DNA of 64,000 nt from a virus. Under the pieces are notes generated by a model, which worked only from the letters and a program-made list of their open reading frames with translations, made no database searches and was not told where the DNA came from. The DNA lies in IMG/VR virus record IMGVR_UViG_3300028388_006015, positions 11,148 to 75,147 of that record. One strand, written 5' to 3'. Made by a program: the position numbers and the translations under genes. Positions 19,057 through 54,765 of this stretch are shown one piece after another. The first letter of the stretch is position 1. Each line of letters starts with the position of its first letter.

Positions 19057-19428
19057 TTACCAAAACCAACACTCCTCCTCGTCATCTGCATTTTTTGCCA
19101 ACCAGGGGCCGTCTGAACTATTCCATACCCAATATACAGTAACTGTCAAAACTGCATCAGGGTCTGTATAGATGTCTCCAATTGCAATTGCTCGAAATAA
19201 ATAAATGCCGGGATCGTAAAATTCTATTTGAGGATTATATCCTGCATTCAATGGATCGTCGGGAAAATATTGACCAACAACACCATTAACGCGAAATGTG
19301 GCTTCTGTATAACTGAGTGAAGAGGAGTTTAACAAAAACCCCTCAAACACCCAGTAAATATCCGTAGGAATAACATTGCTGCTATTCTCAGGTGCATTTT
19401 GCAGTTGATTATATAATCGAATGCTCAT
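19057..19428 (-). CDS. hypothetical virion protein
   Basis: 123 aa, beta-rich, in the baseplate cluster. Confidence 0.5.
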   Translation of the reverse strand: MSIRLYNQLQNAPENSSNVIPTDIYWVFEGFLLNSSSLSYTEATFRVNGVVGQYFPDDPLNAGYNPQIEFYDPGIYLFRAIAIGDIYTDPDAVLTVTVYWVWNSSDGPWLAKNADDEEECWFW

Positions 19429-20013: not shown

Positions 20014-20025
20014 GATTGTATATTT

Positions 20026-20160
20026 TTAACTTGGCGTACTACAAACTTCAATTGAGTTATCGGAACCTACGTTACTACCTACATACTCAACAAGAATTGT
20101 TAAATTGGGATCAATTCTCGTAACTGTGGTTTGTGTTGGTGTTAATATTGCTTCGTTCAT
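20026..20160 (-). CDS. 44 aa small protein related to the C-terminus of the downstream gene
   Basis: Manual translation MNEAILTPTQTTVTRIDPNLTILVEYVGSNVGSDNSIEVCSTPS; fills the gap after baseplate J. Confidence 0.5.
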   Translation of the reverse strand: MNEAILTPTQTTVTRIDPNLTILVEYVGSNVGSDNSIEVCSTPS

Positions 20161-20161
20161 A

Positions 20162-21358: not shown

Positions 21359-21360
21359 TA

Positions 21361-22287: not shown

Positions 22288-22288
22288 A

Positions 22289-36722: not shown

Positions 36723-38315
36723 TTACTGAATGATATGGACGTCGTGCTTTGTCTTGAGATCTTCAACGAGCTGTTGTACCGACAAAACCTTATCTCCATA
36801 AGCTTTTTCCAGATCAGGGTTGTTATCAAACGCCTTTTTCAGTGCTGTCATGTTGTGTGCACTACGACGACCAACTGGAGTGCTTTCTACCGTTTCTAGA
36901 CGATCTGTGAGTTCTTGGATTTGATTCTGAAAGCCCTTTACAATAGTGCCAAAGTTTTCTTTCAATTCATCCTGTGAAGCAGAAAAGTCGTCAAATTTTG
37001 ACGAGAGAACATCTTCAATACCTTTGATGATATTATCAGACGGATTGGTTTGATGTGAAAAATCTTCCAGAGGTGCATTATTTTCACCTTTCGACATTGT
37101 CTGCGAACTAGATTGTCCACCGTTATCTTCTTCATTAACGCCCTCCATTGTCTTATTGGGAGCGCTCATTCCTTGAATGGCCTTAACGAGAGTAGCAATG
37201 GCCTTTTCCATCCTGTCAACCTTTTCCATGGCCTTGTTGAAGTTTTCCATTTCAACAAATTTAGCACCATGGGTGACGTTATTGTCGGTTTTGTTGCTCA
37301 TCTCGACACTTTTTGCGTCAGGACCAGATGATACATCTGAGGGCATAGCTTTTACAATGTTGCCTTCAACGGAAAAACCGAGATCTGTCAATGCTTTCGT
37401 TAGATCTTCGTGAGTAAGTGTATTGTTGGTCGATTGTTGCATCGCTGAACGAATTTTTGCAAAATTATAAATCTTAGAAAATTCAGTGAACGGAATATTA
37501 TGCCTTAGCAATAAATTATAAACGTCACCTTTTGTTAAAACTGATTGCCTAAAATTACTATCTGTAGATTTATTAGACAACGGGGCGTATTTCTTTTCTT
37601 TATCGACACTTTCAAGAATTATTGGCTGATGGCTTTCAATTGTAGCTGCTTTTGCTACTTTGATATTAAAGCTGCGATCTATAGTGATTCGATACCCTTG
37701 ATCATTGGTTACGTCAACAATATACTCTTGACCTCCATCAGCAGGATTCTCTCGAGTGTCAAAAGCCATTTCAGTATCGTCATATTCGCCTTTTATTAGC
37801 GATAGTAACGTATTGCTATTTTTTGGAGTTGGTGTTATTGCACAACCAGTAATCTTGGCTTTCTTTACTTTTCGTGGGTCAAACACGTCGCGTTCTACCA
37901 CTTTTCCTTCTATACTAAAGCCCAGTCGACGATTGGATGAAGATTTTTCTAATGTTTGTGCAAGTGCGTAAACTTTACGTGCTTTTTCGGAATGAGGATA
38001 TAAAAAGCCCTCAACGTGCAATTTTTTACCTTTTACAAATGCCTTTGTTGGTTCGCCCACAATAGATGACGGATCGACACTACCTCTATGGTTGTAGTTG
38101 AAATATCCATGATTGAGAAAAAATGACAGGTCAAAACCAGTAGGGTCGAGCATTTCATCATCCGCATCAAGATCGGGAGTAGACGCTATACCTGCAATCA
38201 TCATTTTACCCTGCTCACTACCATCATCTGCTTTTTGTATCTCAATAGGTACAAAAAACTTAAACTTGTCAGGTACTCCGTTTGTTTTAGAGCGATAATG
38301 TGTATTGTGTAGCAT
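36723..38315 (-). CDS. prohead protease-scaffold fusion
   Basis: GIASTPDLDADDE, GYFNYNH, LGFSIEG, AITPTPKN protease domain, followed by a coiled-coil scaffold rich in Phi-x-K-[AG] sites. Confidence 0.85.
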   Translation of the reverse strand: MLHNTHYRSKTNGVPDKFKFFVPIEIQKADDGSEQGKMMIAGIASTPDLDADDEMLDPTGFDLSFFLNHGYFNYNHRGSVDPSSIVGEPTKAFVKGKKLHVEGFLYPHSEKARKVYALAQTLEKSSSNRRLGFSIEGKVVERDVFDPRKVKKAKITGCAITPTPKNSNTLLSLIKGEYDDTEMAFDTRENPADGGQEYIVDVTNDQGYRITIDRSFNIKVAKAATIESHQPIILESVDKEKKYAPLSNKSTDSNFRQSVLTKGDVYNLLLRHNIPFTEFSKIYNFAKIRSAMQQSTNNTLTHEDLTKALTDLGFSVEGNIVKAMPSDVSSGPDAKSVEMSNKTDNNVTHGAKFVEMENFNKAMEKVDRMEKAIATLVKAIQGMSAPNKTMEGVNEEDNGGQSSSQTMSKGENNAPLEDFSHQTNPSDNIIKGIEDVLSSKFDDFSASQDELKENFGTIVKGFQNQIQELTDRLETVESTPVGRRSAHNMTALKKAFDNNPDLEKAYGDKVLSVQQLVEDLKTKHDVHIIQ

Positions 38316-40651: not shown

Positions 40652-41386
40652 TTAAAAACGAATTGGTGTCCAATTTAATCCAATCCCGACATAAGGTGCG
40701 GGACTTACCGCATTATTATTTAATGTGAATCCGTATCCAACCGAAACCCCAATGCCAAACTTATTGGTAAGTCTGTCGATGATAATAGCTTCACCATCTA
40801 CAATATCAATATATGGATTGTCGGTTGTAATATCAACAACTGAAGAACGCTTCTTAAAAAAGCCGCCCTTACGCTCAGTAATTTGAGAGGTGAGAGTTGC
40901 ATATGTTTTGAATGCAAGGTCGATCGAATCTTGAGTAGCAACAACGCTCCAATCTGCATACGCGTCTTGATTTTCACCATAATATGCATACTCAGGACAG
41001 TCGTTAGTGATTGTATTGTTTACGGGCACAGGAATTTCAACATATTCAGTATCTATTACCTCACGCGTTAATGTTGGAACGCTACCTTTATATTTGAGCT
41101 CAGCAACTAAGCGCGTATAATTGCGAATCAGACGATCTTGCTTCCGCACCTCTTTAAGAGCTTGATTGAGAAGAGAGTCTTTTTCTGAATACGCCCCTTC
41201 AATCTCATTACGATCAAGAACTAATGCTTCAATGCGAGTATGCGTTTGGTTGAGACTGTCTTTGTACGTATTAATAACGTCGGTGTGATAACTTTCAAGT
41301 TCGCGATGAATTCTTTGTTCCCTCGCACAAAATGATACCGATAACACGATACCGATTGCAAGTATGATGAATAGCCACTTTGTCAT
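40652..41386 (-). CDS. spanin-like membrane protein
   Basis: N-terminal TM helix, coiled coil, C-terminal amphipathic beta strands FGIGVSVGYG..PYVGIGLNW ending in Phe. Confidence 0.55.
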   Translation of the reverse strand: MTKWLFIILAIGIVLSVSFCAREQRIHRELESYHTDVINTYKDSLNQTHTRIEALVLDRNEIEGAYSEKDSLLNQALKEVRKQDRLIRNYTRLVAELKYKGSVPTLTREVIDTEYVEIPVPVNNTITNDCPEYAYYGENQDAYADWSVVATQDSIDLAFKTYATLTSQITERKGGFFKKRSSVVDITTDNPYIDIVDGEAIIIDRLTNKFGIGVSVGYGFTLNNNAVSPAPYVGIGLNWTPIRF

Positions 41387-41390: not shown

Positions 41391-41993
41391 TTAATATTGT
41401 TTGATTACGTTTTTGATTACGTCCAAGTCAAGACACATTCCCGCCACTCCAATAACTTCATTATTGCGAAATCGCGGATATTTTTGAACAACTAAAAGTG
41501 TAGTTTCGCCTTCAGGGTTTACAAACTTTTCTACACCAATCCAACTCATTTTATTTTCGACAACCCACTTATTGTTCTCCATATAACGCTCAGCAAATTT
41601 TTGATCATTATATAGATCACTTATCTTTTTGCCAATGCAATCCTTTGCACTCAAATTATAATCATTGAGAAATGTTCGCTCATACTCTTTATTGACATAT
41701 AGCATTACACCATCTATGGATGTAAGCCAATGAGCGTTAACGTGATCATAAGTTGCCGATTCAAAGAACACTATTTGAGATTGTAAGATATATACCTGTT
41801 TTTGCAATTCTCCAATCAACAAGTCATTTCTCTCAACCTCTTGTTTTAATGCCAATCTCTCAGCCTTGTATTCACTAATGATTAATACAAGCTCGTCCAT
41901 ATTTGTTTTTCGTCGCGTTGCCAAGTATGTTAAAAAACCACTAATGACAGTGGACGAGAATATAGCTATAACTAGCTGTAATACATTGTCCAT
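41391..41993 (-). CDS. holin-like TM + coiled coil + PAS domain protein
   Basis: One N-terminal TM then RRK, a heptad coil, then WLTSIDGVMLYVNKEYE..DCIGKKISDLY..KYPRF..VIGVAGMCLD (PAS_4-type). Confidence 0.75.
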   Translation of the reverse strand: MDNVLQLVIAIFSSTVISGFLTYLATRRKTNMDELVLIISEYKAERLALKQEVERNDLLIGELQKQVYILQSQIVFFESATYDHVNAHWLTSIDGVMLYVNKEYERTFLNDYNLSAKDCIGKKISDLYNDQKFAERYMENNKWVVENKMSWIGVEKFVNPEGETTLLVVQKYPRFRNNEVIGVAGMCLDLDVIKNVIKQY

Positions 41994-41999: not shown

Positions 42000-43595
42000 T
42001 TAATTAAAAGCACCACTCTTTAGCTCGTCCTCAAAGGCTTTATAAACGGGGTTTGCATTAAAATCATAAAACTCGCCCTGATCTCCTTCTTCGTTATACT
42101 CATCAATGGCCTCGTTACTTTCTTGTCCACCCATAGCTTGTTGTGAGAGCCATTGAATATATTGAGGATTAAGAACAATATCATCGTCTTCAAGATCACG
42201 AGGAAGACCTGCTTTTTCACGAGCTTCTTTGAGTCCCATAATAGAGCCGACTCTTTTAGCATCAAGTTCTACTTCATCTTTTTCGTTTTCAGAATCAAGA
42301 CCAACAAACTCCAAAACAAATTCGTCAGTTAATGGCTCAATAAGCCACCTATTAAGCTTTCTTTGAATAAAACGCATTAATGGTCTCAATCCTTTATCAC
42401 GACTATATTTCAATCGCGCTTCATTATTTCCTTCAAAAAGAGACTGGCTTCCTGAACTTCCACTAAGATGAAAACCAATCTCACTAGGGTCAATACGATA
42501 TACACTACATGCAATCTTCAACAAGTATTCTTGCCACTTAGAGAATTCCATGTCTCGATTAGACTTTTGCATATCTATCCATTCAAAATCATCAGCCTGG
42601 ATCAATGGAGTCTTCCAGCTATTTTGAACACCCGAAACCATTGACCACCATTCTTGACGAAATTCGCTAAGTCGCGTTTCGTTTACAACACCTGCAGCCT
42701 TCCAAACTCCCTTTGGAGCACTTCCTTGAGAAAAGAAGTTACCATTATGCTGATCACCCCACAACATCCATGTTACAATCTTAATAAGTACCTCCAATTC
42801 ACTCATTCCATACCCATTGCTCGTTAAAGTGTTTTGAGGATTTCTGATACCTAAACACATTTCCCAAGGATAGAAATAAGAGATGATCGTATCCTCATAA
42901 AGCTGAACATATTCAGGAGCATATCCATTAACCTTTTGAATATCAGCACTATCATACGTATGATCGACCTTACGAATAGTTGAGCTGTCGCATGTTACAA
43001 ATTCAGTCGGTCTAAAACGACGATCTTGTACGACCTCGAATGCAGCATGATCAAGAACAAGACTGTCAGAAAGCCACTTTCGAATAAAATCCTCAATATT
43101 ATCACCAACCCACTTCTTATCTTCCACGCTACAATTGAGAATGAATTTTTCCAACTCCCTTACCTTCTTGTTGTTGTACAACTTTTCATTGCCATCTCTC
43201 TTATTGCGTTCTCTACGTACAAAGCGAAATCCAACCTCATATTTTTCCCATGCAGGTTGAAGAAATTCGCACACTTGATCTATTCTCGTTCCAATAACTG
43301 CAGCAATTACAGGCGTTTTGGCAATTTTGCGCAACATTTTTTCAGAAACACCAGCAAAACGTTGTTGGTATCCACGAGTATTGTTGTTGCTATAGGGATC
43401 TGAAATTATTGTTGATCGCTTACTTGTATTGGCTTGTTGTTTCGCACTTTGTTGTAATTGTGCAGATACAGAATATGCCTTCATTATTGAATGAGGGTCG
43501 TTGGATAGCATGGCCTTGTGCAGCACTTCTTGTTGACGTGCTTGTAGGTCTTGTATCTGCTTAGATATCTGTTGTAATTCTGTTAATTCTGACAT
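42000..43595 (-). CDS. portal protein
   Basis: IRNP..GYGMSELE, NFFSQGSAPKG, DMEFSKW..IACSVYRIDPSEIG, GLRPLM, EAREKAGL. Confidence 0.92.
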   Translation of the reverse strand: MSELTELQQISKQIQDLQARQQEVLHKAMLSNDPHSIMKAYSVSAQLQQSAKQQANTSKRSTIISDPYSNNNTRGYQQRFAGVSEKMLRKIAKTPVIAAVIGTRIDQVCEFLQPAWEKYEVGFRFVRRERNKRDGNEKLYNNKKVRELEKFILNCSVEDKKWVGDNIEDFIRKWLSDSLVLDHAAFEVVQDRRFRPTEFVTCDSSTIRKVDHTYDSADIQKVNGYAPEYVQLYEDTIISYFYPWEMCLGIRNPQNTLTSNGYGMSELEVLIKIVTWMLWGDQHNGNFFSQGSAPKGVWKAAGVVNETRLSEFRQEWWSMVSGVQNSWKTPLIQADDFEWIDMQKSNRDMEFSKWQEYLLKIACSVYRIDPSEIGFHLSGSSGSQSLFEGNNEARLKYSRDKGLRPLMRFIQRKLNRWLIEPLTDEFVLEFVGLDSENEKDEVELDAKRVGSIMGLKEAREKAGLPRDLEDDDIVLNPQYIQWLSQQAMGGQESNEAIDEYNEEGDQGEFYDFNANPVYKAFEDELKSGAFN

Positions 43596-44170: not shown

Positions 44171-44746
44171 CTAAAGTTTTTTGCAATGAAAAGTAAGTTG
44201 AATTTTAATGTCTGTTGGAGCGACTCCTCCAGTTCCATCTTTGTTGTTATCAGCACCTCCATGCCATGGAAGAATATAGGCGGCTTTGCGAAAATCTTTA
44301 TCCCATAAATATTGCGCCTCTATTGCTTTTTCGTCAGTGAAAATCTTGATCTTTACAAGACTGTCGTGAATAAATCTAATTTCACCACTAACATCTTGTC
44401 CTCGTTTAACACTTATTTCATTAGGTCTGACGAACTTGCCTTTATCATAGTTAAAATACGGAGCAATATCCCAAGTACCTTTTTCAGGGTTTGATTGGAA
44501 CGTTACAATAGCAGCATCATAATTTGAAGGATTATTCTTGTTAAGATTAACGCCAAATAATTTGCTACTATCTAGTTGATCAGGATCTGGACGTATATCG
44601 TATGGATCGCTTAATATGCGAAATGAAAACTGAATACTATGCGTTTTTCGAACATTAATGCTCTTGAGAAAACGATAGTAAAAACGAGCAACTAAAGCTT
44701 TTACGCTTCTATCTATGTGGTGGCCTTTTTTAATTGTATAGATCAT
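44171..44746 (-). CDS. hypothetical beta-sandwich protein
   Basis: 191 aa; KLFG..PWHGG..AP pattern; start overlaps the upstream stop. Confidence 0.55.
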   Translation of the reverse strand: MIYTIKKGHHIDRSVKALVARFYYRFLKSINVRKTHSIQFSFRILSDPYDIRPDPDQLDSSKLFGVNLNKNNPSNYDAAIVTFQSNPEKGTWDIAPYFNYDKGKFVRPNEISVKRGQDVSGEIRFIHDSLVKIKIFTDEKAIEAQYLWDKDFRKAAYILPWHGGADNNKDGTGGVAPTDIKIQLTFHCKKL

Positions 44747-45339
44747 TGCTTATATAGAATTAATGATTGGTCTAAACTTCTATACTCTACTCTACCAGCA
44801 TTGTAGAGTCGATATAGCTCGTTATCTCCATTATAACCTAAGATCTTTAACCAACTACTTCCTAAAAATCTCAGACTAAACGATTGTGGCCCAACTGTCA
44901 TTGTTGGAGTGGGTTCAAAAGATATCAATGCATTAAAATAATTCTCCCCTCCATCTTCTGAAATTTGCCAATTGCCAGTATAAGATTCAGCTACTGCATC
45001 TGCAGATATATCAAATATACTCACTCCAAACAAATTAAACAAAGAAGTATTTGCATCAACAACGACAGTAATAACCTCAGAGCGATCCCATATATCATTA
45101 ACTTTCAAAGCTAAATCTTCAACTTGATTGTTTACTCTTCGAGATAGCAAATCCATAACTACAGAAGTGTCTTGAGTTTCGTATTGTGTAGTCGTAATTA
45201 TTACACCTTTCTTAAAAGATTGTCCTACATAATAATATCCATTAAGCTCATAAGCAAAGATGCTGTCAGGTGTAGTTTGAGCTTGACCTACTGTGAAAGC
45301 GGACAGAAATAGAAACAAAAAAACGATAATGATTTTCAT
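44743..45339 (-). CDS. secreted protein with Sec signal peptide
   Basis: Probable start 45339 MKIIIVFLFLFLSAFTVGQA-Q. Confidence 0.65.
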   Translation of the reverse strand: MKIIIVFLFLFLSAFTVGQAQTTPDSIFAYELNGYYYVGQSFKKGVIITTTQYETQDTSVVMDLLSRRVNNQVEDLALKVNDIWDRSEVITVVVDANTSLFNLFGVSIFDISADAVAESYTGNWQISEDGGENYFNALISFEPTPTMTVGPQSFSLRFLGSSWLKILGYNGDNELYRLYNAGRVEYRSLDQSLILYKQ

Positions 45340-45352: not shown

Positions 45353-46159
45353 TTAAAAGTTGTATCTTGCATAAATCCAATCTCGCACTGACGCAATTTC
45401 TGTATTATTATGCTCATCGTCATAAATTAACAACTCAGCTATATATCCATCCCAAAAGCCTGAAGCCCCATCTCTACTAGAACCTATACAGCTACCATTA
45501 ACCAAAAACTCACCCCAAGATTCAGACAATGAGTTAAAAGCTATACTTGTTCCTGGAGATACTACTGTCTTAAATTGACTACCAGAGTCGTCAATCATTA
45601 CAACATACAATCTAGCAGTATTAATACTAGAACTGGATACTTTTGAAAATGCTTGAGTTTGACCCCTTACTAAAAACTCCTGAAACGATGCTGTTGATGC
45701 GTCAGATCTAATTATAAGACCTCCACTATTAGCTCCATTAAAACTAAATATTCGTTTATCGACAACATTAGCATCTGCTTTTCCTACAACATAGACAGTA
45801 ATATGAGCGTTATTTGGCAAGAAGTCTCCGGTAGTTAACTCAAATCTATCATTAGCTCCATCAAAAACATAAGATGCTTGATTATTCATCACACCTACTA
45901 TTGGAGCAAAAGTAGGTCTAAATGATGATATTGTTTGCTCATAAACAACGGTAGGATCTGCCCAATTAATTGGAGAGCTTACTGATTGACCGTTAGTATA
46001 AGTATCTATTTCAGCAGAGGCCTGAATGTGCACTTTTAAATTTGCAGTAACAGGAGGAGCTTCATATAAACCACCCCCATGCTGTCCCAACCACATTCCT
46101 TGCTGAGAAATCCCAACAAGAGGTAATAGCCATAATATGATTAATACTAGTCTATTCAT
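45353..46159 (-). CDS. secreted LamG/concanavalin-like lectin protein
   Basis: MNRLVLIILWLLPLVGIS-Q signal; YVFDGAND, WDGYIAELLIYD, WIYARY LamG motifs; TAATG coupling to the giant gene. Confidence 0.75.
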   Translation of the reverse strand: MNRLVLIILWLLPLVGISQQGMWLGQHGGGLYEAPPVTANLKVHIQASAEIDTYTNGQSVSSPINWADPTVVYEQTISSFRPTFAPIVGVMNNQASYVFDGANDRFELTTGDFLPNNAHITVYVVGKADANVVDKRIFSFNGANSGGLIIRSDASTASFQEFLVRGQTQAFSKVSSSSINTARLYVVMIDDSGSQFKTVVSPGTSIAFNSLSESWGEFLVNGSCIGSSRDGASGFWDGYIAELLIYDDEHNNTEIASVRDWIYARYNF

Positions 46160-49100
46160 TATTCTATTGTTGTTAAGCATTTATATACGCCTGAGTTTCC
46201 GTAACAAGTCACCATCGCTTCTGTAGCTATTGTTATAGTACCTAAATCGGTACCGTCTAATGAATTGAATTCTGATGGAAAAGTAATATCCGTATCGGCA
46301 CTCATACCGGAAAAGTGGAAGTTATATACAGGAGCTGTACCTGCCAATGTAACTTCATTGTTAATAGTTAGAGTACAGTCGTTATTACCTGTATTAGTTA
46401 TATAGTAACTAGCGTTATAATAGCCCTCCATATCTAATGTAATAGTCGATCCTGTAATATTCCCAGTCAACAATTTATTTGTTAATTTCTCAAGGTAGTC
46501 GTATACCGCATTTTGGCTAGGCGCATTTGCCGTATCGCCATCCCATCCAGATCCGTAAGCATCATCCTCAACTCCTCCTACATCACCTTTAGACGCCATT
46601 AAATCCCAATCACTGGCCAAAGGACCAGGTTCTTCAGTTGTTGATGCTGCCGTGCATACCCAAGCACTTCCATCATTTTCAACTGCTTGATTTATCAAAT
46701 ACGTTCCTGCAGACCAAGCACCTTCCCAAGTAATATCACCATCGGCACCTGGAGATCCTGCAGGTCCGGCAGGTCCTTGCTCTCCCTGAAGTGCTTCAAT
46801 TTTCATAATATTTATATACGTTGCTGTATCGGAAACATTAAATACTCCACTATCTTCTATGGAAATAGCGTATAATTTAAGTTTATCCCCGCCATTAAAT
46901 GTTTGAGTGTAAGTCAACGTAACAGCGCCATCATCTTGATTGCCATCTCTAGTAACATAGTCATTTGTACTAATGATAGAGCTATATCCTGACCCTTCAT
47001 CTAAATGAAGACTTGCTGTAAGTTCGTTTCTACTAATAGCTCCGTTACCTGCTACTTGAAAAGATATTTGATATAAAGCAGTGTCTAATAATGTAATCTC
47101 TTCACCACTTACCGTATACACTGAATCATCAGTTTCGTAGGGAGTATCCCACGATAAAAATGTACCACTACTTGCAATATTACTAGTAGTTGTAGTAAAT
47201 GCTCCCATAAACGAGAATGAACTAGGAATTGTTGTTTCAGGCGTTATCCATTTAAGACTATCTAAACCATCATTGATTCCTAAATAAGCACCTGCAACAG
47301 CAGATCCGGCAATTGGGTGTCTTTCCATATCATCGTCACTCGATCTAAAGCCTAACAATGACTCAGGAACACCATCATTAAACGTTTCGTACTTATCTAA
47401 TTCCACTCGCCCGTCTGATTGTAGTGTCATAACATTCTGAGTGGTCAATCCATTAGTAGTCCAAAAATTAAGATCTGATGAGCGACTCGATCCATTCCAA
47501 TTACCAACTGCACTAGATTCAATAAACGACATTGGATAAAATGTACTAGACTCGTAACCTCCAAACAAAATTGCTCCTAATTTTTCACGATCAAAAATAC
47601 TTGCATCTGAAGATCCAATAGTTAAGTGATTACTTCCTGATATAAAAGATGATCCGCCGGTACTACTAGGTGCTTCTAAGAATAAAGAGCTGTATGATAA
47701 AGTACTATCTCCATCCTCCCACTTAAATCTTGTAAGGTTCGATCCGGCATCTGGATGTATTGCAAAATCACCATCTACAAAAAACTGATAACTACTATCC
47801 GCAGTACCAATTGATGCTCTTCCTAATCTATAAACTGCACTCAAATACGTACTATCTCCCTCAAATCTCCAATCATCATCTCCTCCCCCTGAATCGCTTT
47901 GTAGATCTTCAATTGGAACGGCTAAATTAGATTCTCCATCCACCAATCTTAAAGAATCTCCATCTACCTCAAAACTAATATTATATCCTGATGTATCAGG
48001 AGATCCTCCTCCTGTTGGAGTGTCGTAGAAAATAAACGTCACGTCACTATCAGTGCTATCTGGTACCCATGCACCACGAACATAAACGGTCTTTGCTGTT
48101 GTTGCTGATACTTCAGGAACACTACCATCATTAAATAAGTGTGCATCTAAAAGCGTATATGTTCCACCTGCTGGATCTAATATTTGCAATACTGGTTTGG
48201 ATCCAACTGTTGTAAATTCGCCAATTAACGTAACGTCGTTTAGACGAGATGAAATTAACGTTGCTTCATCAACACTACGAAAAACACCTCTCAGCTCAAA
48301 AGTAGCGCCTGTAGGTGGCGTAAAGCTTCGAGGAGCAAATAATGGATCGTCAATTGCACCAGTATAATCAAGATTGTATGTGAATTCGCCCTCATAACGA
48401 ATAAATAGATTCTCACAATATGCATTAGGAAAATATCCTGTTTGCATAAGAGGACTGTTGCCAAAATATTGATCTATATTTACTTCAATTGCACTATTGC
48501 GCAATGTATCTGCTCCTGTTCCCCAGTCAAAAGCAAACAATCCATATTCATTAACATGACTGTCAAATCCGCCATTAGTTGTCAGGTTACTGACACGATC
48601 ACTAATCATATTACCGACATTCCATCTAAGAGATGTGTTTTCCCATCTATGCGATCCGGTAACCTGAAAAATACTGAAATCTTGATCAATTATATTCCAA
48701 TATCCAATATTGATTTCGTGAGATTGATTGATGCATGTGTCAGTAAGAAAATAAAAGCCTCCCTGACGATATTGATTAAGTCTTTGAATGTTAAATTGCG
48801 TGTTTTCAAAACCTGTAGTACCGTCCCACTGACAAACAAAATTGTCTGTTGATATTTTATCAATCGTAATATTTGCAATCACTCCCTGTTCAAGCTCAAA
48901 TAATGGAACTGATGTAGTGTTTGTCAAAAACGTATCAACAATCTCCTTAGCTTCAAATATTAAACTTTTGCCTGTTGTTGAATTCATATAGGCAATTTCT
49001 CCATCATTTCTTATTGTAATTTTTCCCCGACCAAGTACCGTAATGCCATATCCATTATTATCATACCATAATGGAGAAGTTGATGCGTTAATGATCTCAG

Positions 49101-52100
49101 CGCCCTCAAATAAATAATATTGAAGATCGGGAGCTGTAATTAAATTATTAGAAGTTGCTGAATTCTTGATAATATCGTAATCAGGATACTCTCCCGTATA
49201 CGTCAATGTTGTAGCGATATATCTTCCCGGTAATACTTGAATTTGATCTGAACTATCTGCAGCCGCAGCAGCAGCCCAAGGATCTTTCCATGGACGAAGA
49301 TAGTTTCCCTTTTCTGCAGTTGCGTTATTACCGTTTTCCGCAACAAATAGAATATCTCCATAATTTTCTTCTCCCACAAACGTACTTAACGTATCATTGC
49401 CATCTACAAGATATAACGTATCATTATCTACATACATATCAATGTTATATCCTGATGTGTCCGTATTGTCAAGATACGATGCAAGATCGGCTTCAAGAGT
49501 TCCGTCCTGATCAGTAATTTTTAAAGTATCGTTTTCGATTATAAGATTGTAGTTCGATCCAGAAGTATCTAAACCTATTCCATCTTGAAGTGATGCGAGA
49601 TCTTCAGTTAATGTGCCATCTTGATCAGTCAGTTCGAGTACTGTTCCGTTAAGTACTAAGCTATAATTACTTCCAGACGTATCGAGTCCAATTCCATCTT
49701 GCAGATCTGGAATGTAAATGGCAAGATTAGTGCTTCCATCAATAATTCTCAAAGAATCTCCATCAATTTCAAAAGATATGTTATATCCGGAAGTGTCTGT
49801 ATTTTCTATAGGAAATACTTGCCATGCCGTTCCGTCCCAATAATTAAACAAGTCAAGATCTGTATTCCAAAAAAAAGCACCATCATATACAACAGACGGA
49901 AGTGTAGGCCATAAATCTCGAGCTACTGTACTTGCATTAGTAGGTACGATAACACCTTCCGATGTGACTTTAACAGTCTCTAATTGAATTTCATGTCCAC
50001 TATCTACATCTAATCTTAAATCACCACTGATTTCATCTATTACTACTCCACCATCAAAATTATATATCGCAAAACTATCTAGAGGTGAATGACCTTCGAG
50101 ATAATAGTTAACAGCATCATCTGAGCTATATGGTGTAACTACCCTTATAGCTCTTTCGGACAATCCTGCGTCCGTATTCAGATCAAACTGAAGCCAATAA
50201 TCTTCAGGAACATTAACGTTCATTACAGCAGGTAAACTATTACCATCATTGCGAATGTCAAAAATACCGTTACTGTCTGCTACAATTACAAATAACTCAC
50301 CTAACTGATCTGTTAATTTAAGAGTATCGTTTTCAAGAACGAAACTATAATTTGAACCACTTGTATCTGTGCCTACTAATGATAATAAATCAACTATTAT
50401 AGTTCCATCTTGATCTGTAACTTCTAGGTCTGTACCGTTCAATACAATTGAATAATTAGATCCTGATGTATCAACACCTACCCCATCCTGTAGGGATGCG
50501 AGATCTTGTATTAGTGTACCATTTTGATCGGTTAATTCTAATTGAGTTCCATTAAGCGTTAATGTATAATTACTACCTGACGTATCTACTCCTATACCGT
50601 CTTGAAGATCAGGAATGTATACAGCTAAATTCGTACTACCATCAACAACTCTCAAACTATCGCCGTCAATCTCAAACGATATATTATAGCCCGAAGTGTC
50701 TGTATTGTCAAGAAGATCTGACAGGTCTACATCAGTGCCATTTTCTATATCTAAATCACCCAATCCATTATACGTTAAACCTTGATCGTCTGTATTGTCT
50801 AAATACGCAGATAGATCAACAACCAATAGTCCACTTTGATCAACAATCTTTAACGAATCATTCTCTATAACTAATGAGTAATTTGAACCTGAAGTGTCAG
50901 TACCAACTAAGGATGCTAAATCTTGTATTAACGTTCCTCCTCCATCCACTAACTCAAGATCTGTCCCGTTAAGAGTTAAAGATGTGTTATATTCGTTTGT
51001 TGGGTCTGCATCAGCATCATCAACAGAATCTTCAAATTGAACTTGACCACCATCTACTAACGATATGATAATTGTAGTTCCAGTAGAGTCAATAGACAAA
51101 TCTTGAGTGTCAGTGTTATCGAGATATGGCGACAAAATCACAGCAAAGCTTCCATTCTGATCTTGAATATATAAGCTGTCATTCGATATATAAAAATTAT
51201 AATTTGAGCCTGATGTATCAGTACCTATTCCATCTTGAAGTGACGCCAAATCAGCAGTAAGAGTACCGTTCTGATCAAGCAATTCTAGATCTGTACCGTT
51301 AAGTATTAATGAATAATTTGAACCTGACGTATCCGTTCCAATCCCATCCTGAAGATCAGGGATATAAACGGCGAAGTTAGTATTTCCGTCTGTCAATCTC
51401 AAACTGTCTCCATCTATTACAAATGAAGTATTATATCCAGAAGTATCGGTATTGTCGAGATACGCAGACAAGTCAACTATTAGCGTACCGTTTTGATCTG
51501 CTAATTTCAAAGAATCATTTTGTATGATTAAAGAGTAATTACTGCCCGAACTATCTGTACCGACCAAAGAAGACATGTCTGTAATTATAGTACCATTTTG
51601 ATCTGTAGTTTCAAGATCAGTGCCATTTAATAGTATTGAATAGTTCGAGCCTGAAGTATCCGTTCCAACACCATCTTGAAGGTCTGGAATATAAACAGCC
51701 AAACTCGTTTGACCATCAGTTATTCGTAGACTGTCACCATCAATAACGAATGAGACATTATATCCTGAGGTGTCGGTATTATCAATATAAATATCGTTCA
51801 GTGTTGCTGTGTCTGCTACTAAAGGATCGCCTAATGTTCCATCACCAGAAATACCGTATCCTGTTTCAGCAACTTGGTTTCCCCAATCATCTCCATCCAC
51901 TGTAGCTGCAGATAACGGCTTAAACATACCATCGCCAAACAACACCATAGTATCTTGTCCTATCTGTGGTTGAGGAACAAGTCCTCTTTGACCTGCAGTA
52001 GATGAAGTCGCGCCCACCATTACATTGACAGTATCACCTACTCCATTAGTTATTGACATTAATCCTGTAGCTGCATCGTATGATAAATCTTGCTCATCTA

Positions 52101-53382
52101 CTCCTAAATCTGGAATATAAACAGCAAAATTTGTTTGACCGTCGATTATACGTAAACTATCTCCGTCAATTTCAAAACTGTAATTATAACCACTACTATC
52201 AATTCCTCCACCACCTGCAAATACTCTCCATGCTTGATCAATAAACATACCAATAGTATCTTGTGCGGCTGTTATAAAGAAATCTTGCTCTCTTGGTGCA
52301 AGTGTATTGGTATCAACAACCTCATCAAGAATAAAAAAGTCATTATCGCACACATTGTAGTATCTGCCACTGCTAATTATATACAATCGCAATTCTGCAG
52401 TTGATGAACGAATTGTGTCAGGACCGGCTAATGTAAAAAAACTACATCCTTGACGTAAAATGTCTGTACTGTCTGGTGATGTGATTCTAAATGGCGTTCC
52501 TAATTCTGTACTTGAACCTCGCACGTAAATAATTTTGCCATCATAACTTGTATCGGGAAGTGTTGGAAAGATAATATCAACAGGAGAGCCTGTAAATGCA
52601 CCGCCATATATAGATATGATGTCGCTCGTGTCAAGAACCTCAATTGGCAATGTGTAAGAGTCGCCAAACGTTAGTCTTTTATGGAACACACGATTATCTC
52701 TAATGTATGGAATCAAAGAAGCAAAAAGGATACCGCCTTGATCTTCAAGATACAAAGTGTCATTTTGCACATACATATCGTAGTTCGTTCCAGATGTATC
52801 CGTTCCAATGCCATCTTGAATATCAGGTATGTAAATAGCTAAATTCGTCTGACCGTCTGTTATGCGTAAACTGTCTCCATCCACTTCAAACGAAACGTTA
52901 TAACCTGAAGTGTCTGCACCACTAAATTCAAAACGATCAATCAACCACGCACGATGAGTTTCTAAACATGCCGACATTGAAACAGGCAAACCTGGAATAT
53001 CAGGAGGAAGTGTGAAATTATCAGTTGCACGATATAACGCAGCATGACCTCTTCTTGGTGCGCGATTAGCAACATAACCACCAACAGTATCACTAACAAC
53101 ATTTACAGTAGTTGCTGCACCTGAAGATGTGATTGTCTTTATTCGATATAAATCGCACTTGATATCCATTATGCGATCGTCCACTTCAATATCTCTCCAC
53201 GTAAATCCTGTAACTGAAACAGTGGGATCGCGAAATGTGAACTTAATAGTAAATGTGCTATCATCTACTACTGTTGGAGTTTCGAGAATGTATGCTAAAC
53301 CACTCACATCGCGCAATGATGTTTGTGCAAAGCTCGATGTGAGTAGTGATATGAATAATAAAATACTTGCTACTCGCTTCAT
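46159..53382 (-). CDS. giant (~2407 aa) signal-peptide-bearing fibre/adhesin
   Basis: MKRVASILLFISLLTSSFA-Q; ~19 DTSG[YS]N repeats; tail-fibre motif GATSSTAGQRGLVP; beta-helix-type start ILFVAENGNN..PWK; C1q-like segment; collagen GEQGPAGPAGSPGADG; WEGAW CBM-like; fibre-type C-terminus. Confidence 0.8.
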   Translation of the reverse strand: MKRVASILLFISLLTSSFAQTSLRDVSGLAYILETPTVVDDSTFTIKFTFRDPTVSVTGFTWRDIEVDDRIMDIKCDLYRIKTITSSGAATTVNVVSDTVGGYVANRAPRRGHAALYRATDNFTLPPDIPGLPVSMSACLETHRAWLIDRFEFSGADTSGYNVSFEVDGDSLRITDGQTNLAIYIPDIQDGIGTDTSGTNYDMYVQNDTLYLEDQGGILFASLIPYIRDNRVFHKRLTFGDSYTLPIEVLDTSDIISIYGGAFTGSPVDIIFPTLPDTSYDGKIIYVRGSSTELGTPFRITSPDSTDILRQGCSFFTLAGPDTIRSSTAELRLYIISSGRYYNVCDNDFFILDEVVDTNTLAPREQDFFITAAQDTIGMFIDQAWRVFAGGGGIDSSGYNYSFEIDGDSLRIIDGQTNFAVYIPDLGVDEQDLSYDAATGLMSITNGVGDTVNVMVGATSSTAGQRGLVPQPQIGQDTMVLFGDGMFKPLSAATVDGDDWGNQVAETGYGISGDGTLGDPLVADTATLNDIYIDNTDTSGYNVSFVIDGDSLRITDGQTSLAVYIPDLQDGVGTDTSGSNYSILLNGTDLETTDQNGTIITDMSSLVGTDSSGSNYSLIIQNDSLKLADQNGTLIVDLSAYLDNTDTSGYNTSFVIDGDSLRLTDGNTNFAVYIPDLQDGIGTDTSGSNYSLILNGTDLELLDQNGTLTADLASLQDGIGTDTSGSNYNFYISNDSLYIQDQNGSFAVILSPYLDNTDTQDLSIDSTGTTIIISLVDGGQVQFEDSVDDADADPTNEYNTSLTLNGTDLELVDGGGTLIQDLASLVGTDTSGSNYSLVIENDSLKIVDQSGLLVVDLSAYLDNTDDQGLTYNGLGDLDIENGTDVDLSDLLDNTDTSGYNISFEIDGDSLRVVDGSTNLAVYIPDLQDGIGVDTSGSNYTLTLNGTQLELTDQNGTLIQDLASLQDGVGVDTSGSNYSIVLNGTDLEVTDQDGTIIVDLLSLVGTDTSGSNYSFVLENDTLKLTDQLGELFVIVADSNGIFDIRNDGNSLPAVMNVNVPEDYWLQFDLNTDAGLSERAIRVVTPYSSDDAVNYYLEGHSPLDSFAIYNFDGGVVIDEISGDLRLDVDSGHEIQLETVKVTSEGVIVPTNASTVARDLWPTLPSVVYDGAFFWNTDLDLFNYWDGTAWQVFPIENTDTSGYNISFEIDGDSLRIIDGSTNLAIYIPDLQDGIGLDTSGSNYSLVLNGTVLELTDQDGTLTEDLASLQDGIGLDTSGSNYNLIIENDTLKITDQDGTLEADLASYLDNTDTSGYNIDMYVDNDTLYLVDGNDTLSTFVGEENYGDILFVAENGNNATAEKGNYLRPWKDPWAAAAAADSSDQIQVLPGRYIATTLTYTGEYPDYDIIKNSATSNNLITAPDLQYYLFEGAEIINASTSPLWYDNNGYGITVLGRGKITIRNDGEIAYMNSTTGKSLIFEAKEIVDTFLTNTTSVPLFELEQGVIANITIDKISTDNFVCQWDGTTGFENTQFNIQRLNQYRQGGFYFLTDTCINQSHEINIGYWNIIDQDFSIFQVTGSHRWENTSLRWNVGNMISDRVSNLTTNGGFDSHVNEYGLFAFDWGTGADTLRNSAIEVNIDQYFGNSPLMQTGYFPNAYCENLFIRYEGEFTYNLDYTGAIDDPLFAPRSFTPPTGATFELRGVFRSVDEATLISSRLNDVTLIGEFTTVGSKPVLQILDPAGGTYTLLDAHLFNDGSVPEVSATTAKTVYVRGAWVPDSTDSDVTFIFYDTPTGGGSPDTSGYNISFEVDGDSLRLVDGESNLAVPIEDLQSDSGGGDDDWRFEGDSTYLSAVYRLGRASIGTADSSYQFFVDGDFAIHPDAGSNLTRFKWEDGDSTLSYSSLFLEAPSSTGGSSFISGSNHLTIGSSDASIFDREKLGAILFGGYESSTFYPMSFIESSAVGNWNGSSRSSDLNFWTTNGLTTQNVMTLQSDGRVELDKYETFNDGVPESLLGFRSSDDDMERHPIAGSAVAGAYLGINDGLDSLKWITPETTIPSSFSFMGAFTTTTSNIASSGTFLSWDTPYETDDSVYTVSGEEITLLDTALYQISFQVAGNGAISRNELTASLHLDEGSGYSSIISTNDYVTRDGNQDDGAVTLTYTQTFNGGDKLKLYAISIEDSGVFNVSDTATYINIMKIEALQGEQGPAGPAGSPGADGDITWEGAWSAGTYLINQAVENDGSAWVCTAASTTEEPGPLASDWDLMASKGDVGGVEDDAYGSGWDGDTANAPSQNAVYDYLEKLTNKLLTGNITGSTITLDMEGYYNASYYITNTGNNDCTLTINNEVTLAGTAPVYNFHFSGMSADTDITFPSEFNSLDGTDLGTITIATEAMVTCYGNSGVYKCLTTIE
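47900..52920 (-). repeat. coding repeats (~35-38 aa units, ~19 copies)
   Basis: Two alternating unit types: DTSGYNxSFxIDGDSLRxxDGxTNxAxYIPDLQDG and DTSGSNYSLxLNGTxLELxDQxGTLxxDL. Confidence 0.85.
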
Positions 53383-53384: not shown

Positions 53385-54173
53385 TTAAATATTGCCGACA
53401 ACTATGCTCCAATTGTCATAGTCATCTACGTTTCTGAATTTGATGTCAATGCGATATACATCAACACCACCATCATCATAATTCTCATAATGAATGACGT
53501 CGCGTCTCGGAGTTGGTGGTGCAGTGTCGCCGTCAGTATATGGCAAAGCATCAGTGGGAGGATTGGTATCGTTGTTGTCTCGTTGCCAAAAATCGGCCTG
53601 TGGAAACACTGGACGTTCAACATTACCTTGAGCGGCTATTGGTTTTCCCCAATCGCAATCACGAACAAGAATGCGCAGTACAAAATCAGTTGCAGCGATT
53701 TCTGTTGTTGTGTGATGTATTGTTGCGCCATGTAATGCAACGTCAGAAGGAATCGTTAACGTACCGACATTACCAGACAGATTATATGTGATTCCTATTC
53801 CGTGAGAAGAGATATCTGCCTGATTAGAAATGTATCTACTAACACCTCCTCCAGAAGCAGGCGTTATAAATACAACTGGACTAGTCCATGCACTTCCATC
53901 ATAAAACGACAAACCATCATTTCCTAGGCCGTCTGCATCTGCAAGTACTGAAATGCTACCTTGAGGTGGATCGACTTCTGCATCACGAGCAGCAATATCT
54001 GCATGTTCGTACACTTCGTTGGTTGCATCGGAACTTACAGATGCTCCAAAATATGTACTTAGCGTACTCAGCTCAATCCCACGAATTACGTACGAATCAA
54101 GCTGAGTATACAATTTCATCGACCCCAATAGCTGACCAATCGAAAGTGTTGGTTGATCTTTTGGATATGGCAT
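53385..54173 (-). CDS. hypothetical protein, probably virion-associated
   Basis: 262 aa, acidic and beta-rich; no signal peptide; immediately upstream of the giant gene. Confidence 0.55.
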   Translation of the reverse strand: MPYPKDQPTLSIGQLLGSMKLYTQLDSYVIRGIELSTLSTYFGASVSSDATNEVYEHADIAARDAEVDPPQGSISVLADADGLGNDGLSFYDGSAWTSPVVFITPASGGGVSRYISNQADISSHGIGITYNLSGNVGTLTIPSDVALHGATIHHTTTEIAATDFVLRILVRDCDWGKPIAAQGNVERPVFPQADFWQRDNNDTNPPTDALPYTDGDTAPPTPRRDVIHYENYDDGGVDVYRIDIKFRNVDDYDNWSIVVGNI

Positions 54174-54183: not shown

Positions 54184-54765
54184 TTACAATGCGTAAGTAA
54201 TAGAAAACTGGGGCGCTGCAACATTATTTTTACCTGTAGCTGCGCTTGTAGCCACTCCTTCATCGACATCAACAGTAACCTCACCATCTCCAGCAGGTGT
54301 GATGTCTGCAGTGAATTCAATATTGTCTGAAGTAGCAAGGTTACCAGCACTACCATTTCCAACAGTGATATCTCCTACAACAAAGCCACTGACCTCTTCA
54401 GAGAATGTGATTGTGACTTCAAATGGAGAAGTGCTGGTTGGATCGTCTTCTGCAGTTGTAATCGCAACTGTAACACCAGTGGTTTGCTCATCAACAAGAT
54501 CGGACGTTGTTTCTCCATCAATGACGTAACCAACATCATACGACTCATCGACCATAAAATAATTGGCGATCTCACTAAGAGTCACCTCGAATCCTTCTTG
54601 AAATGGCATTGTTTCGAGATCATCGGCAAATTTATCGTTGACAGTAATTTGATGAATGGAGATCTCTTTTCCATTTCCACCTGTTTTAAAGCCCTCGATT
54701 TCAACACGAAGTTGAGATGCACCAGAACCTTTACTTGTTACGATTGATACTCTATTGGAATTCAT
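54184..54765 (-). CDS. Ig-like (Big-type) domain protein, possible capsid decoration
   Basis: C-terminal PFEVTITFSEEVSGF..DITVGNG..FTADITPAGDGEVTVDV..N.A. Confidence 0.75.
   Translation of the reverse strand: MNSNRVSIVTSKGSGASQLRVEIEGFKTGGNGKEISIHQITVNDKFADDLETMPFQEGFEVTLSEIANYFMVDESYDVGYVIDGETTSDLVDEQTTGVTVAITTAEDDPTSTSPFEVTITFSEEVSGFVVGDITVGNGSAGNLATSDNIEFTADITPAGDGEVTVDVDEGVATSAATGKNNVAAPQFSITYAL

What the first reader, a model, noticed from the sequence alone, without database searches (positions are those of the whole stretch)
46159..53382. Giant fibre is loaded with Bacteroidetes O-glycosylation sequons
Seen: more than 30 D-[ST]-[ALVIMT] tripeptides by manual count (DSL/DTL at a fixed position in many repeats, plus DST, DTI, DTA, DTV), and DTS/DSS opening nearly every repeat. 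The other exported proteins also carry some (PDSI in 44743; KDSL and QDSI in the spanin-like protein). Known: D(S/T)(A/L/V/I/M/T) is the sequon of the Bacteroidetes general O-glycosylation system, which acts on extracytoplasmic proteins. Inference: export lets the phage use host glycosylation to make a mucin-like glyco-fibre for camouflage, protease resistance or adhesion.
Basis: partly seen in the sequence, partly recalled or inferred. Interest (0 to 1): 0.8.

Follow-up and report, generated by a model that had tools for sequence, protein, structure and literature searches.

The report
Exported phage fibre rich in glycosylation motifs
A 2407-residue fibre-like protein of an uncultured Bacteroidota phage carries its host's secretion signal and about 1.7 times the chance number of the host's sugar-attachment motif, so it is probably exported and sugar-coated by the host's own machinery, a route I found in no paper on tailed phages.

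Summary
The ORF at 46159-53382 (- strand) has 34 D-[ST]-[ALVIMT] tripeptides against 19.9±4.3 in composition shuffles, and 57 against 25 if Ser is allowed at +1. Fourteen of them sit in one column of a 36-aa repeat that has 20 copies. The non-repeat part is still enriched (19 vs 11.6, p=0.02), and five control motifs are not. The phage's non-exported proteins are at 0.84× expectation, and its cytoplasmic tail fibre has 1 against 3.3.

The premises of the interpretation are supported:
- Three consecutive genes (giant, lectin-like, small) have signal peptides with Gln at +1, the Bacteroidetes "Q-rule".
- Gene leaders lack Shine-Dalgarno motifs.
- The nearest portals are from Chryseobacterium and Bacteroides phages.
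- No phage glycosyltransferase and no T9SS C-terminal domain were found.

In the repeat family (155 representatives), the sequon form of the hairpin turn occurs only in Q-rule proteins (88/305 repeats) and never in proteins with other signal peptides (0/49). Proteins that have it are also 1.7× enriched outside the repeats.

Glycosylation itself, "mucin-like" density and virion attachment remain unproven. This scan has noted similar exported, sequon-rich phage fibres on other DNA (67 notes in at least 54 genomes).

The parts
46159..53382 (-). Giant ORF, 2407 aa, fibre-like, with 34 strict O-glycosylation sequons (57 with Ser at +1)
   Evidence: Its ATG lies 2 nt after the stop of the upstream gene.
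53323..53382 (-). Signal peptide MKRVASILLFISLLTSSFA|Q, with Gln at +1 (Bacteroidetes Q-rule)
   Evidence: The Q-rule is described in PMC5837995.
50260..51774 (-). Main block of 36-38-aa repeats (residues 537-1041). They come in A/B/C subtypes. A and C carry D[ST]L at the hairpin turn; B carries NGT[DQV]L.
   Evidence: The low-confidence model shows three strands per repeat.
52693..52914 (-). Two N-terminal repeats (residues 157-230), both with the turn sequon
52093..52200 (-). Single repeat (residues 395-430) with DSL
49354..49797 (-). Second repeat block (residues 1196-1343): 4 repeats, 3 with the turn sequon plus one extra DTL
47998..49353 (-). Central non-repeat domain (residues 1344-1795), sequon-poor (2 sites). 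A beta-helix or depolymerase-like fold is suspected but not shown.
   Evidence: No PDB or family match. A weak Atlas lead to DUF1565. The AF2 model was unusable.
47890..47997 (-). Isolated repeat (residues 1796-1831) with DSL
46573..46812 (-). Collagen-like G-X-Y run followed by the segment that matches tail-fibre family phrog_5073 (residues about 2191-2270)
45353..46159 (-). ConA-like lectin protein. Its ATG overlaps the giant gene's stop (TAATG). Signal peptide MNRLVLIILWLLPLVGIS|QQ. No sequons.
44743..45339 (-). Small exported protein. Signal peptide ...AFTVGQA|QTTPDSI, with a DSI sequon five residues after the predicted cleavage site.
40652..41386 (-). Spanin-like envelope protein with an N-terminal anchor and 3 sequons against 0.9 expected

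Best explanation
The giant protein is a phage-encoded, fibre-like protein made with a host-type Sec/signal-peptidase-I leader.

Proposed course late in infection of a Bacteroidota (probably Flavobacteriia-like) cell:
1. The protein is translocated into the periplasm and cut at SFA|Q.
2. Its new N-terminal Gln is cyclised, as the Q-rule predicts.
3. The host's general O-glycosylation system adds its glycan to Ser/Thr in D-[ST]-[LIVTAM(S)] motifs. These include the hairpin-turn site of 14 repeats, about 20 scattered sites, and possibly the 23 DTS/DSS repeat openers.
4. With no T9SS domain and no lipobox, it should stay in the periplasm with the co-exported lectin-like and small proteins.
5. The neighbouring holin-like and spanin-like genes then lyse the cell and release it.

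Shown by sequence: the motifs, their excess, the signal peptides, the host phylum, and the absence of phage glycosyltransferases.
Inferred: export, glycan transfer, and the periplasmic location.
Unknown: whether the fibre then joins virions or acts on its own.
For: Export signal and host:
- Q at +1 after SPI-like leaders in three consecutive genes, and in every family member on viral contigs whose N-terminus is available.
- Only 2 of 46 gene leaders have a Shine-Dalgarno-like motif, against a 12% background.
- The nearest portals are from Chryseobacterium phage MA9V-3 and B. thetaiotaomicron DAC phages.
- Named repeat homologues are from Zobellia and a Flavobacteriales MAG.

Sequon excess limited to exported proteins:
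- Window: giant 34 vs 20.0; non-exported proteins 46 vs 54.6.
- L006: 44 vs 19.6 and 6 vs 2.7 for the exported proteins; 8 vs 8.2 for the others.
- G002, a true phage with TerL and a tape measure protein: 22 vs 12.4 for exported, 25 vs 28.4 for the rest.
- Non-repeat mature parts of nine Q-rule proteins from four viral contigs, pooled: 92 vs 46.2.

Family-wide pattern:
- The same repeat exists with a non-sequon turn (GT[DTNA]L).
- The sequon turn is found in 88/305 repeats of Q-rule proteins and 0/49 repeats of proteins with non-Q signal peptides.
- Proteins with the sequon turn are 1.71× enriched outside the repeats; the others are at 1.03×.

Other:
- No GT1/GT2 gene or other glycosyltransferase family was found in the 75-kb record.
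- Literature: sites in exported proteins are nearly fully occupied, engineered motifs are used, and cross-species glycosylation works (PMC12871550).
Against: - No glycan, proteome or expression data exist.
- The signal peptide is judged by eye and by a simple hydrophobicity rule; no trained predictor was available.
- 14 of the 34 sites are copies of one repeat column, so they are not independent. The excess outside the repeats of this one protein is modest (p=0.02).
- Composition shuffles are a poor null for repeat proteins. Family members range from 0 of 21 expected to 65 of 16 expected.
- The link between Q-rule and sequon turn could reflect shared descent of one clade rather than selection.
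- The lectin-like neighbour is exported yet has no sequon.
- Both structure models were of low confidence (pLDDT 43 and 34), so the exposure of the sites is not established.
- The host is inferred; no host genome or CRISPR match is in hand.
Confidence: 0.6

Rival explanations
1. The sequons are by-products of structure. D-[ST]-L is a favourable beta-hairpin turn followed by the first buried Leu of the next strand, multiplied by repeat duplication in an Asp/Ser/Thr-rich protein. Any glycosylation would be incidental and not selected.
For: - Leu at the third position is invariant in all 20 repeats, while D-[ST] is replaced by T-[DQV] in six.
- After D[ST], only L and S are in excess.
- The model, though weak, places D-S at the turn before strand 2.
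- The excess outside the repeats of this protein is only p=0.02.
Against: - The same fold is built with a non-sequon turn in 87 family members, including all 14 with non-Q signal peptides. The structure therefore does not need D-[ST].
- Proteins with the sequon turn are also 1.7× enriched outside the repeats.
- Reversed and E/N/G-substituted control motifs are not enriched.
- Non-exported fibre proteins of the same phage are at or below expectation.
Confidence: 0.2
2. The protein is an accessory, host-derived surface or periplasmic protein carried by the phage in the manner of a moron: an adhesin, depolymerase or exclusion factor. It is not a virion fibre. It would be glycosylated like any host envelope protein, with no virion glyco-coat.
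For: - The repeats are shared with signal-peptide-bearing bacterial giants (Zobellia, a Flavobacteriales MAG).
- The nearest cultured relative checked, Bacteroides phage DAC19, has no giant gene upstream of its portal.
- This myovirus has a separate baseplate and fibre module without signal peptides at 15072-22314.
- Export removes the protein from the site of virion assembly.
- P. gingivalis phages carry Q-rule proteins that were proposed to modify the host envelope (PMC10367356).
Against: - The gene is translationally coupled inside the late TerL-to-portal gene string.
- It has phage-fibre features: a collagen-like run and a phrog_5073 match. The L006 homologue ends in a tail I read as an endosialidase-chaperone (S74-like) domain, by eye and without a family test.
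- In G002, L022 and L023 the homologous exported protein sits where receptor-binding proteins usually lie, after the tape measure or tape-measure-like and distal-tail-like genes.
- The sequon-turn subfamily members whose sources were looked up (10 clusters) come only from metagenome contigs of 17-108 kb, not from complete bacterial genomes.
Confidence: 0.35
3. The N-terminal hydrophobic segment does not act as an export signal during infection. The fibre folds in the cytoplasm and joins virions in the ordinary way, and the sequons are never seen by the periplasmic glycosylation machinery.
For: - All known tailed-phage fibres assemble in the cytoplasm (general knowledge).
- Signal-peptide calls on phage structural proteins can be false (noted for capsid proteins in PMC10367356).
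Against: - The leader has a basic n-region, a hydrophobic stretch of about 15 residues, S-x-A at -3/-1 and Gln at +1.
- The same design is conserved in unrelated-sequence N-termini of homologues and in two adjacent genes.
- The sequon excess tracks the presence of that leader.
Confidence: 0.1

Closest known systems
Substrates of the general protein O-glycosylation system of Bacteroidota (review PMC12871550)
   Same: The D-[ST]-[LIVTAM(S)] motif, a Sec signal, a predicted non-cytoplasmic location, and motif excess confined to exported proteins.
   Different: The gene is encoded by a phage, inside its late gene string. No phage protein is mentioned as a substrate in the review (0 occurrences of 'phage') or in the papers my searches returned.
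Virion glycosylation in mycobacteriophages (Freeman et al. 2023, cited in PMC11652166)
   Same: A phage structural-type protein carrying O-glycans that could shield it.
   Different: There the phage brings its own glycosyltransferase genes and modifies capsid and/or tail. Here no glycosyltransferase was found, and the route would be host machinery in the periplasm after Sec export.
Q-rule signal-peptide proteins of Porphyromonas gingivalis phages (PMC10367356)
   Same: Phage genes whose products follow the Bacteroidetes-specific Gln+1 rule, read as adaptation to the host's secretion pathway.
   Different: Those are proteins of unknown function in prophages. Neither glycosylation nor fibre architecture was discussed for them (0 occurrences of 'glycosylat' and 'tail fiber').
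Bdellovibrio bacteriovorus mosaic adhesive trimer (MAT) fibres (PMC10769870)
   Same: Chimeric fibre proteins with a mosaic build that a cell uses to recognise other bacteria. One family member matches the MAT N-terminal model NF053851.
   Different: They are encoded by a predatory bacterium, not a phage. I only saw the title and abstract, so their export route and any glycosylation were not checked. The window protein itself does not match NF053851.
Glycosylated S-layer proteins TfsA/TfsB of Tannerella forsythia (PMC6120980, PMC4030854)
   Same: Large exported surface proteins of a Bacteroidota species that carry the phylum's O-glycan.
   Different: These are cellular S-layer proteins, a different fold, and not phage-encoded. 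No sequence similarity was found.

Membership tests
Substrate of the Bacteroidota general O-glycosylation system | D-[ST]-[A/L/V/I/M/T] motif in a soluble region | tested here: met
   34 strict motifs, 57 with Ser at +1. The weak model places the repeat site at a hairpin turn.
Substrate of the Bacteroidota general O-glycosylation system | Non-cytoplasmic location, through a signal peptide or membrane topology | tested here: met
   An SPI-type leader with Gln at +1, conserved in homologues and neighbours. This is a sequence-level prediction only; no trained predictor was available.
Substrate of the Bacteroidota general O-glycosylation system | Produced in a Bacteroidota cell that has the glycosylation locus | tested here: inconclusive
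   The host phylum is inferred from the Q-rule, the lack of Shine-Dalgarno motifs, the nearest phages and the repeat homologues. The host genome is unknown.
Substrate of the Bacteroidota general O-glycosylation system | Glycan detected on the Ser/Thr | not testable with these tools
   Needs glycoproteomics.
Tailed-phage tail or virion fibre | Homology to known fibre families | tested here: inconclusive
   Only residues 2199-2269 match phrog_5073 (E 3e-10). There is no Pfam, NCBIfam or PDB match otherwise.
Tailed-phage tail or virion fibre | Made and assembled in the cytoplasm, with no export signal | tested here: not met
   A signal peptide is present.
Tailed-phage tail or virion fibre | Present in purified virions | not testable with these tools
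   The phage is uncultured, known only as an IMG/VR record.
Phage-encoded virion glycosylation (mycobacteriophage type) | Glycosyltransferase genes in the phage genome | tested here: not met
   No PF00535 or PF00534 in the 75-kb record, and the controls rang. No glycosyltransferase family among the window ORFs. The record is about 72% complete.
Type IX secretion cargo | C-terminal T9SS sorting domain | tested here: not met
   No NCBIfam or Pfam match of any kind at the C-terminus.
Mucin-like glycoprotein | Dense Pro/Thr/Ser-rich disordered region with clustered O-glycan sites | tested here: not met
   Pro 3%, S+T 19.7%. Sites number 1.4-2.4 per 100 aa and lie in beta-strand repeats.

The most novel reading that the evidence does not exclude
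Some Bacteroidota phages build part of their host-recognition gear outside the cytoplasm. Giant fibres would be Sec-exported, capped with pyroglutamate, O-glycosylated by the host's general system in the periplasm, and attached to particles only at or after lysis. The virion would then wear the host's own species-specific glycan.
Probability: 0.2. Interest if true: 0.9.

Novelty: new variant of a known kind. Interest (0 to 1): 0.62.

Why it matters
If this is right, a phage protein would be matured by two phylum-specific host pathways: Q-rule processing and general O-glycosylation.

- It would be the first phage substrate of the Bacteroidota O-glycosylation system that I could find in the literature.
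- It would be a second, mechanistically different route to glycosylated phage proteins, besides the phage-encoded transferases of mycobacteriophages.
- It raises the question of how, or whether, an exported fibre reaches the virion.
- It offers a sequence signature (Q-rule leader plus sequon excess) for assigning uncultured phages to Bacteroidota hosts.
- The split of the family into sequon-rich and sequon-poor members suggests the motif is under selection in both directions. That bears on the still unknown function of these glycans.

Tried and rejected
- Pfam, NCBIfam and PDB sequence searches gave no usable match for the repeats, the central domain or the C-terminal part.
- A homologue search with the central domain alone found nothing. 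The Atlas gave only a weak DUF1565 lead.
- AlphaFold2 without an alignment failed. The repeats gave pLDDT 43, of which only the strand pattern was used. The central domain gave pLDDT 34 and was discarded, so no fold search was run.
- Close relatives of this phage were not found in IMG/VR by portal, nor in GenBank phages by DNA.
- tblastn of the giant protein against cultured phages hit only the collagen-like/C-terminal segment of two uncultured Caudoviricetes records. P0030 hit none.
- Two scans of species-representative bacterial genomes found nothing real. The Treponema and Lachnospiraceae hits were chance.
- L009 and L010 from the DNA-pattern scan are not family members.
- The other fibre-bearing viral contigs share no sheath, TerL or portal with this phage, so the module crosses phage lineages.
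- I rejected 'mucin-like' on composition and site density.
- I rejected a T9SS route because no C-terminal sorting domain was found.
- I rejected phage-encoded glycosylation because no glycosyltransferase was found.
- The lead from earlier notes to Cellulophaga phage phi18:3 gp085-087 could not be checked here. I had no accession and no paper with its virion proteome.
Full report
**Setting.** The window is part of a 75,147-base IMG/VR virus record that is linear and about 72% complete. All genes lie on the minus strand. PHROG matches identify a tail sheath (29728-31341), a prohead protease (36723-38315), a portal (42000-43595) and a terminase-like ATPase (56896-59301). Pfam adds Baseplate_J and an SU10-type capsid protein. 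It is therefore a myovirus-type phage. The finding's ORF lies between the terminase and the portal. Its ATG at 53382 follows the stop of the upstream gene by 2 nt. Its own stop overlaps the ATG of the next gene (TAATG), so it is part of the late gene string.

**Check of the observation.**
- From that ATG the protein has 2407 residues and 34 D-[ST]-[ALVIMT] tripeptides: DSL 11, DST 6, DTL 6, DTA 4, DTV 2, DTI 2, DSV 2, DTM 1.
- A 36-38-residue repeat occurs 20 times. Nineteen copies open with D[ST]SG.N.
- The repeats fall into three subtypes in A-B-C order. A (…DGDSLR…) and C (…ND[ST]L[KY]…) carry D[ST]L at columns 14-16. B carries NGT[DQV]L there.

**Is it more than chance?**
- Residue shuffles give 19.9±4.3, and only 7 of 2000 reach 34. 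The protein is 11% Asp and 20% Ser+Thr, so composition alone explains about 20 sites.
- After D[ST], only Ser (23, 3.4×) and Leu (17, 2.6×) are in excess. Thr, Val and Ala are at expectation and Ile is below it. Two repeat-fixed tripeptides therefore account for most of the whole-protein excess, and those copies are not independent.
- Outside the repeats 19 sites remain against 11.6±3.2 (p=0.02). Five control motifs range from 0.57× to 1.01×: the reversed motif, E/N/G in place of D, and D[ST] followed by a disallowed residue.
- The 55 non-exported ORFs of the window hold 46 against 54.6 expected.
- A recent review lists Ser among the six residues that make up about 90% of +1 positions (PMC12871550). 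With it, the count is 57 against 25.0±4.5.

**Host and export.** The interpretation needs a Bacteroidota host and an exported protein.
- The giant protein starts MKRVASILLFISLLTSSFA|QTS.
- The next gene, a ConA-like lectin (Pfam Laminin_G_3), starts MNRLVLIILWLLPLVGIS|QQG.
- The gene after that starts MKIIIVFLFLFLSAFTVGQA|QTTPDSI.
- All three have Gln at +1, which is the "Q-rule". That rule is reported as specific to signal-peptidase-I substrates of Bacteroidetes (PMC5837995) and has already been noted in P. gingivalis phage proteins (PMC10367356).
- Only 2 of 46 gene leaders contain a Shine-Dalgarno-like tetramer, against a 12% background, and the leaders are A-rich. From general knowledge this fits Bacteroidota.
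- The nearest portals among cultured phages are from Chryseobacterium phage MA9V-3 (38%) and B. thetaiotaomicron DAC phages (37%).
- The only named homologues of the repeats are from Zobellia galactanivorans and a Flavobacteriales MAG. Atlas look-alikes are mostly Bacteroidota.
- No T9SS sorting domain, and no other family match, was found at the C-terminus. I saw no lipobox in the leader, so the predicted location is the periplasm.
- No GT1, GT2 or other glycosyltransferase family was found in the record. Any glycan would therefore have to come from the host.

**Relatives.** The protein has no close relative. The first search returned ten other proteins, matched through the repeat region (residues about 390-1390 for nearly all hits).
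- Scans of IMG/VR found the same repeat in giant ORFs of other viral contigs: L006/L014, L013, L011 (=G002) and L012/L015.
- Relatives of family member P0030 were found on five more contigs.
- G002 is a true phage, with a large terminase and a tape measure protein.
- Every N-terminus I could read has a Q-rule leader.
- In G002, L022 and L023 the exported fibre-like gene follows the tape measure or tape-measure-like and distal-tail-like genes. In G002 and L023 it is followed by a small Q-rule protein and membrane proteins I read as a lysis cassette; the L022 locus ends inside the gene.
- These phages share no sheath, terminase or portal with the window's phage. The module therefore recurs across lineages.

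**Sequon statistics in the relatives.**
- L006: the giant has 44 against 19.6 (18 against 10.8 in its repeat-free C-terminal 1933 residues). The next exported protein has 6 against 2.7. Five non-exported neighbours have 8 against 8.2.
- G002: three exported proteins have 22 against 12.4, and 28 other ORFs have 25 against 28.4.
- Pooled non-repeat mature parts of nine Q-rule proteins from four viral contigs: 92 against 46.2±6.4. Degenerate repeats that the HMM missed may inflate this figure somewhat.
- Not every exported relative is enriched. L022 has 3 against 5.1, L023 has 4 against 3.0, and L020 has 16 against 27.4.

**Family-wide test of structure against glycosylation.** A profile of the A-B-C unit found 155 representatives at E≤0.001 among 1.84 billion proteins.
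- I classed N-termini with a simple rule. Of the proteins in hand, 82 had a signal peptide with Gln at +1, 21 had a signal peptide without it, 41 had none and 12 were truncated. The rule misses some true cases, such as P0005 and P0122.
- At the hairpin column the family uses either [GN]D[ST][LI] or GT[DTNAS]L.
- The sequon form occurs in 88 of 305 repeats of Q-rule proteins and in 0 of 49 repeats of proteins with a non-Q signal peptide (Fisher 4e-7). At the level of proteins the split is 24/71 against 0/14 (p=0.008).
- The 31 proteins in which at least half the repeats have the sequon turn are enriched 1.84× overall and 1.71× outside the repeats. The 87 proteins without it are at 0.81× and 1.03×.
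- The fold therefore does not require D-[ST]. The sequon turn travels with a protein-wide sequon excess, and with the Bacteroidota-type leader.
- Caveats: repeats and proteins are related by descent, so these tests overstate independence. No taxonomy is attached to the representatives. Some family members are extreme in either direction (0 against 21 expected in P0018, 65 against 16 in P0037), so the composition null is crude.
- The ten sequon-turn clusters whose members I looked up come only from metagenome contigs of 17-108 kb. That size fits phage genomes but does not prove it.

**Structure.** A single-sequence AlphaFold2 model of residues 537-864 had pLDDT 43. Only its strand pattern is usable: three short strands per repeat, with G-D at the turn and the Ser/Thr as the first residue of strand 2. 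This agrees with the alternating hydrophobic pattern of the sequence. It suggests an exposed turn position but does not establish it. The central domain model (pLDDT 34) was discarded. My impression that residues 1344-1795 form a beta-helix or depolymerase-like domain rests on sequence appearance and a weak Atlas lead to DUF1565. It is not shown.

**Most likely mechanism.** The protein is made late, exported by Sec, and cut at A20|Q21. It is glycosylated in the periplasm at accessible D-[ST]-Phi motifs by the host's general system. It stays there with the co-exported lectin-like and small proteins until the nearby holin-like (41391-41993) and spanin-like (40652-41386) proteins lyse the cell.
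- The review states that motifs in non-cytoplasmic proteins are nearly fully occupied, that an engineered motif becomes glycosylated, and that proteins are cross-glycosylated between species (PMC12871550).
- Export in a Bacteroidota host would therefore be close to sufficient.
- I put 0.6 on export plus glycosylation.
- The function of the glycan is unknown even for host proteins; stability is one suggestion.
- "Mucin-like" does not fit. The sites number 1.4-2.4 per 100 residues in beta-rich repeats with 3% Pro.

**What the protein is for.** Two readings remain.
- *A virion fibre that joins particles at or after lysis.* In favour:
  - its place in the late gene string;
  - a collagen-like run followed by a phrog_5073 tail-fibre match;
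  - a C-terminal tail in the L006 homologue that I read by eye as S74-chaperone-like;
  - the receptor-binding-protein position of the homologues in siphovirus-like contigs.
- *An accessory exported protein that never joins the virion.* In favour:
  - export itself;
  - the separate leaderless baseplate and fibre module of this myovirus;
  - the absence of a giant gene upstream of the portal in Bacteroides phage DAC19;
  - the bacterial homologues.
- I cannot decide between them with these tools.

**Comparison with what is known.** The motif and its system are well known (PMC12871550). Phage virion glycosylation is known in mycobacteriophages, but through phage-encoded glycosyltransferase genes (Freeman et al. 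2023, as cited in PMC11652166). Q-rule proteins in phages have been noted without any link to glycosylation (PMC10367356). My literature searches returned no paper describing a phage protein as a substrate of the Bacteroidota O-glycosylation system, or a Sec-exported fibre in a tailed phage. The scan's own notes list 67 similar observations in at least 54 genomes. I did not use them as evidence.

**Verdict.** I class it as a new variant of a known kind, with interest 0.62.

Noticed in passing
window 4249-7213 (-): Pfam finds GTP cyclohydrolase I, 6-pyruvoyl-tetrahydropterin synthase (QueD-like) and radical-SAM/4Fe-4S (QueE-like) proteins among the window ORFs. The ORFs at 5866-6675 and 6632-7213 look like QueE and QueD by eye. 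This would be a 7-deazaguanine (preQ0-type) DNA-modification pathway in the phage.
   Followed up: no
proteins P0018, P0016, P0003, P0024 against P0037, P0019, P0014: The repeat family splits sharply in sequon content. Some giant exported proteins have 0-7 sequons where 11-36 are expected. Others have 44-65 where 16-20 are expected. This suggests either avoidance or accumulation, or a strong neighbour bias of the repeat subtypes.
   Followed up: partly
L016/L017 (G002) 3296-10305; L022 5104-12469; L023 4247-14431: A recurrent gene order in otherwise unrelated viral contigs. A tape measure or tape-measure-like gene and a distal-tail-like gene of about 840-1006 aa come first (in L022 and L023 directly upstream). 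Then comes a fibre-like protein with a Q-rule signal peptide. In G002 and L023 a small Q-rule protein and membrane or lipobox proteins that look like a lysis cassette follow.
   Followed up: partly
P0030, P0035, P0058, P0088, P0096; L019 9992-17137; L020 9317-19855: Many family members share a short motif directly after the predicted cleavage site: Q-[IV]-x-K-G-[TA]-[GA]-[IV]-x-Y. This points to a conserved N-terminal module of the mature exported protein. The window protein lacks it.
   Followed up: no
window 54184-54765 (-) and 53385-54173 (-): Just upstream of the giant gene lie two genes without signal peptides. One has a Big_12 Ig-like domain (E 2e-14). The other contains an FYDGSAW motif resembling the YWDGTAW motif inside the giant protein. 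They may be partners or adaptors of the fibre.
   Followed up: no
window, 46 gene starts: Leaders are A-rich and almost devoid of Shine-Dalgarno-like motifs (2 of 46 against a 12% background). G002 shows the same (2 of 31).
   Followed up: yes
window 46157-46161: The giant gene's stop and the lectin gene's start overlap as TAATG. The longer ORF call 45353-46180 (start MLNNNRIM) is probably not the real start of the lectin gene.
   Followed up: partly
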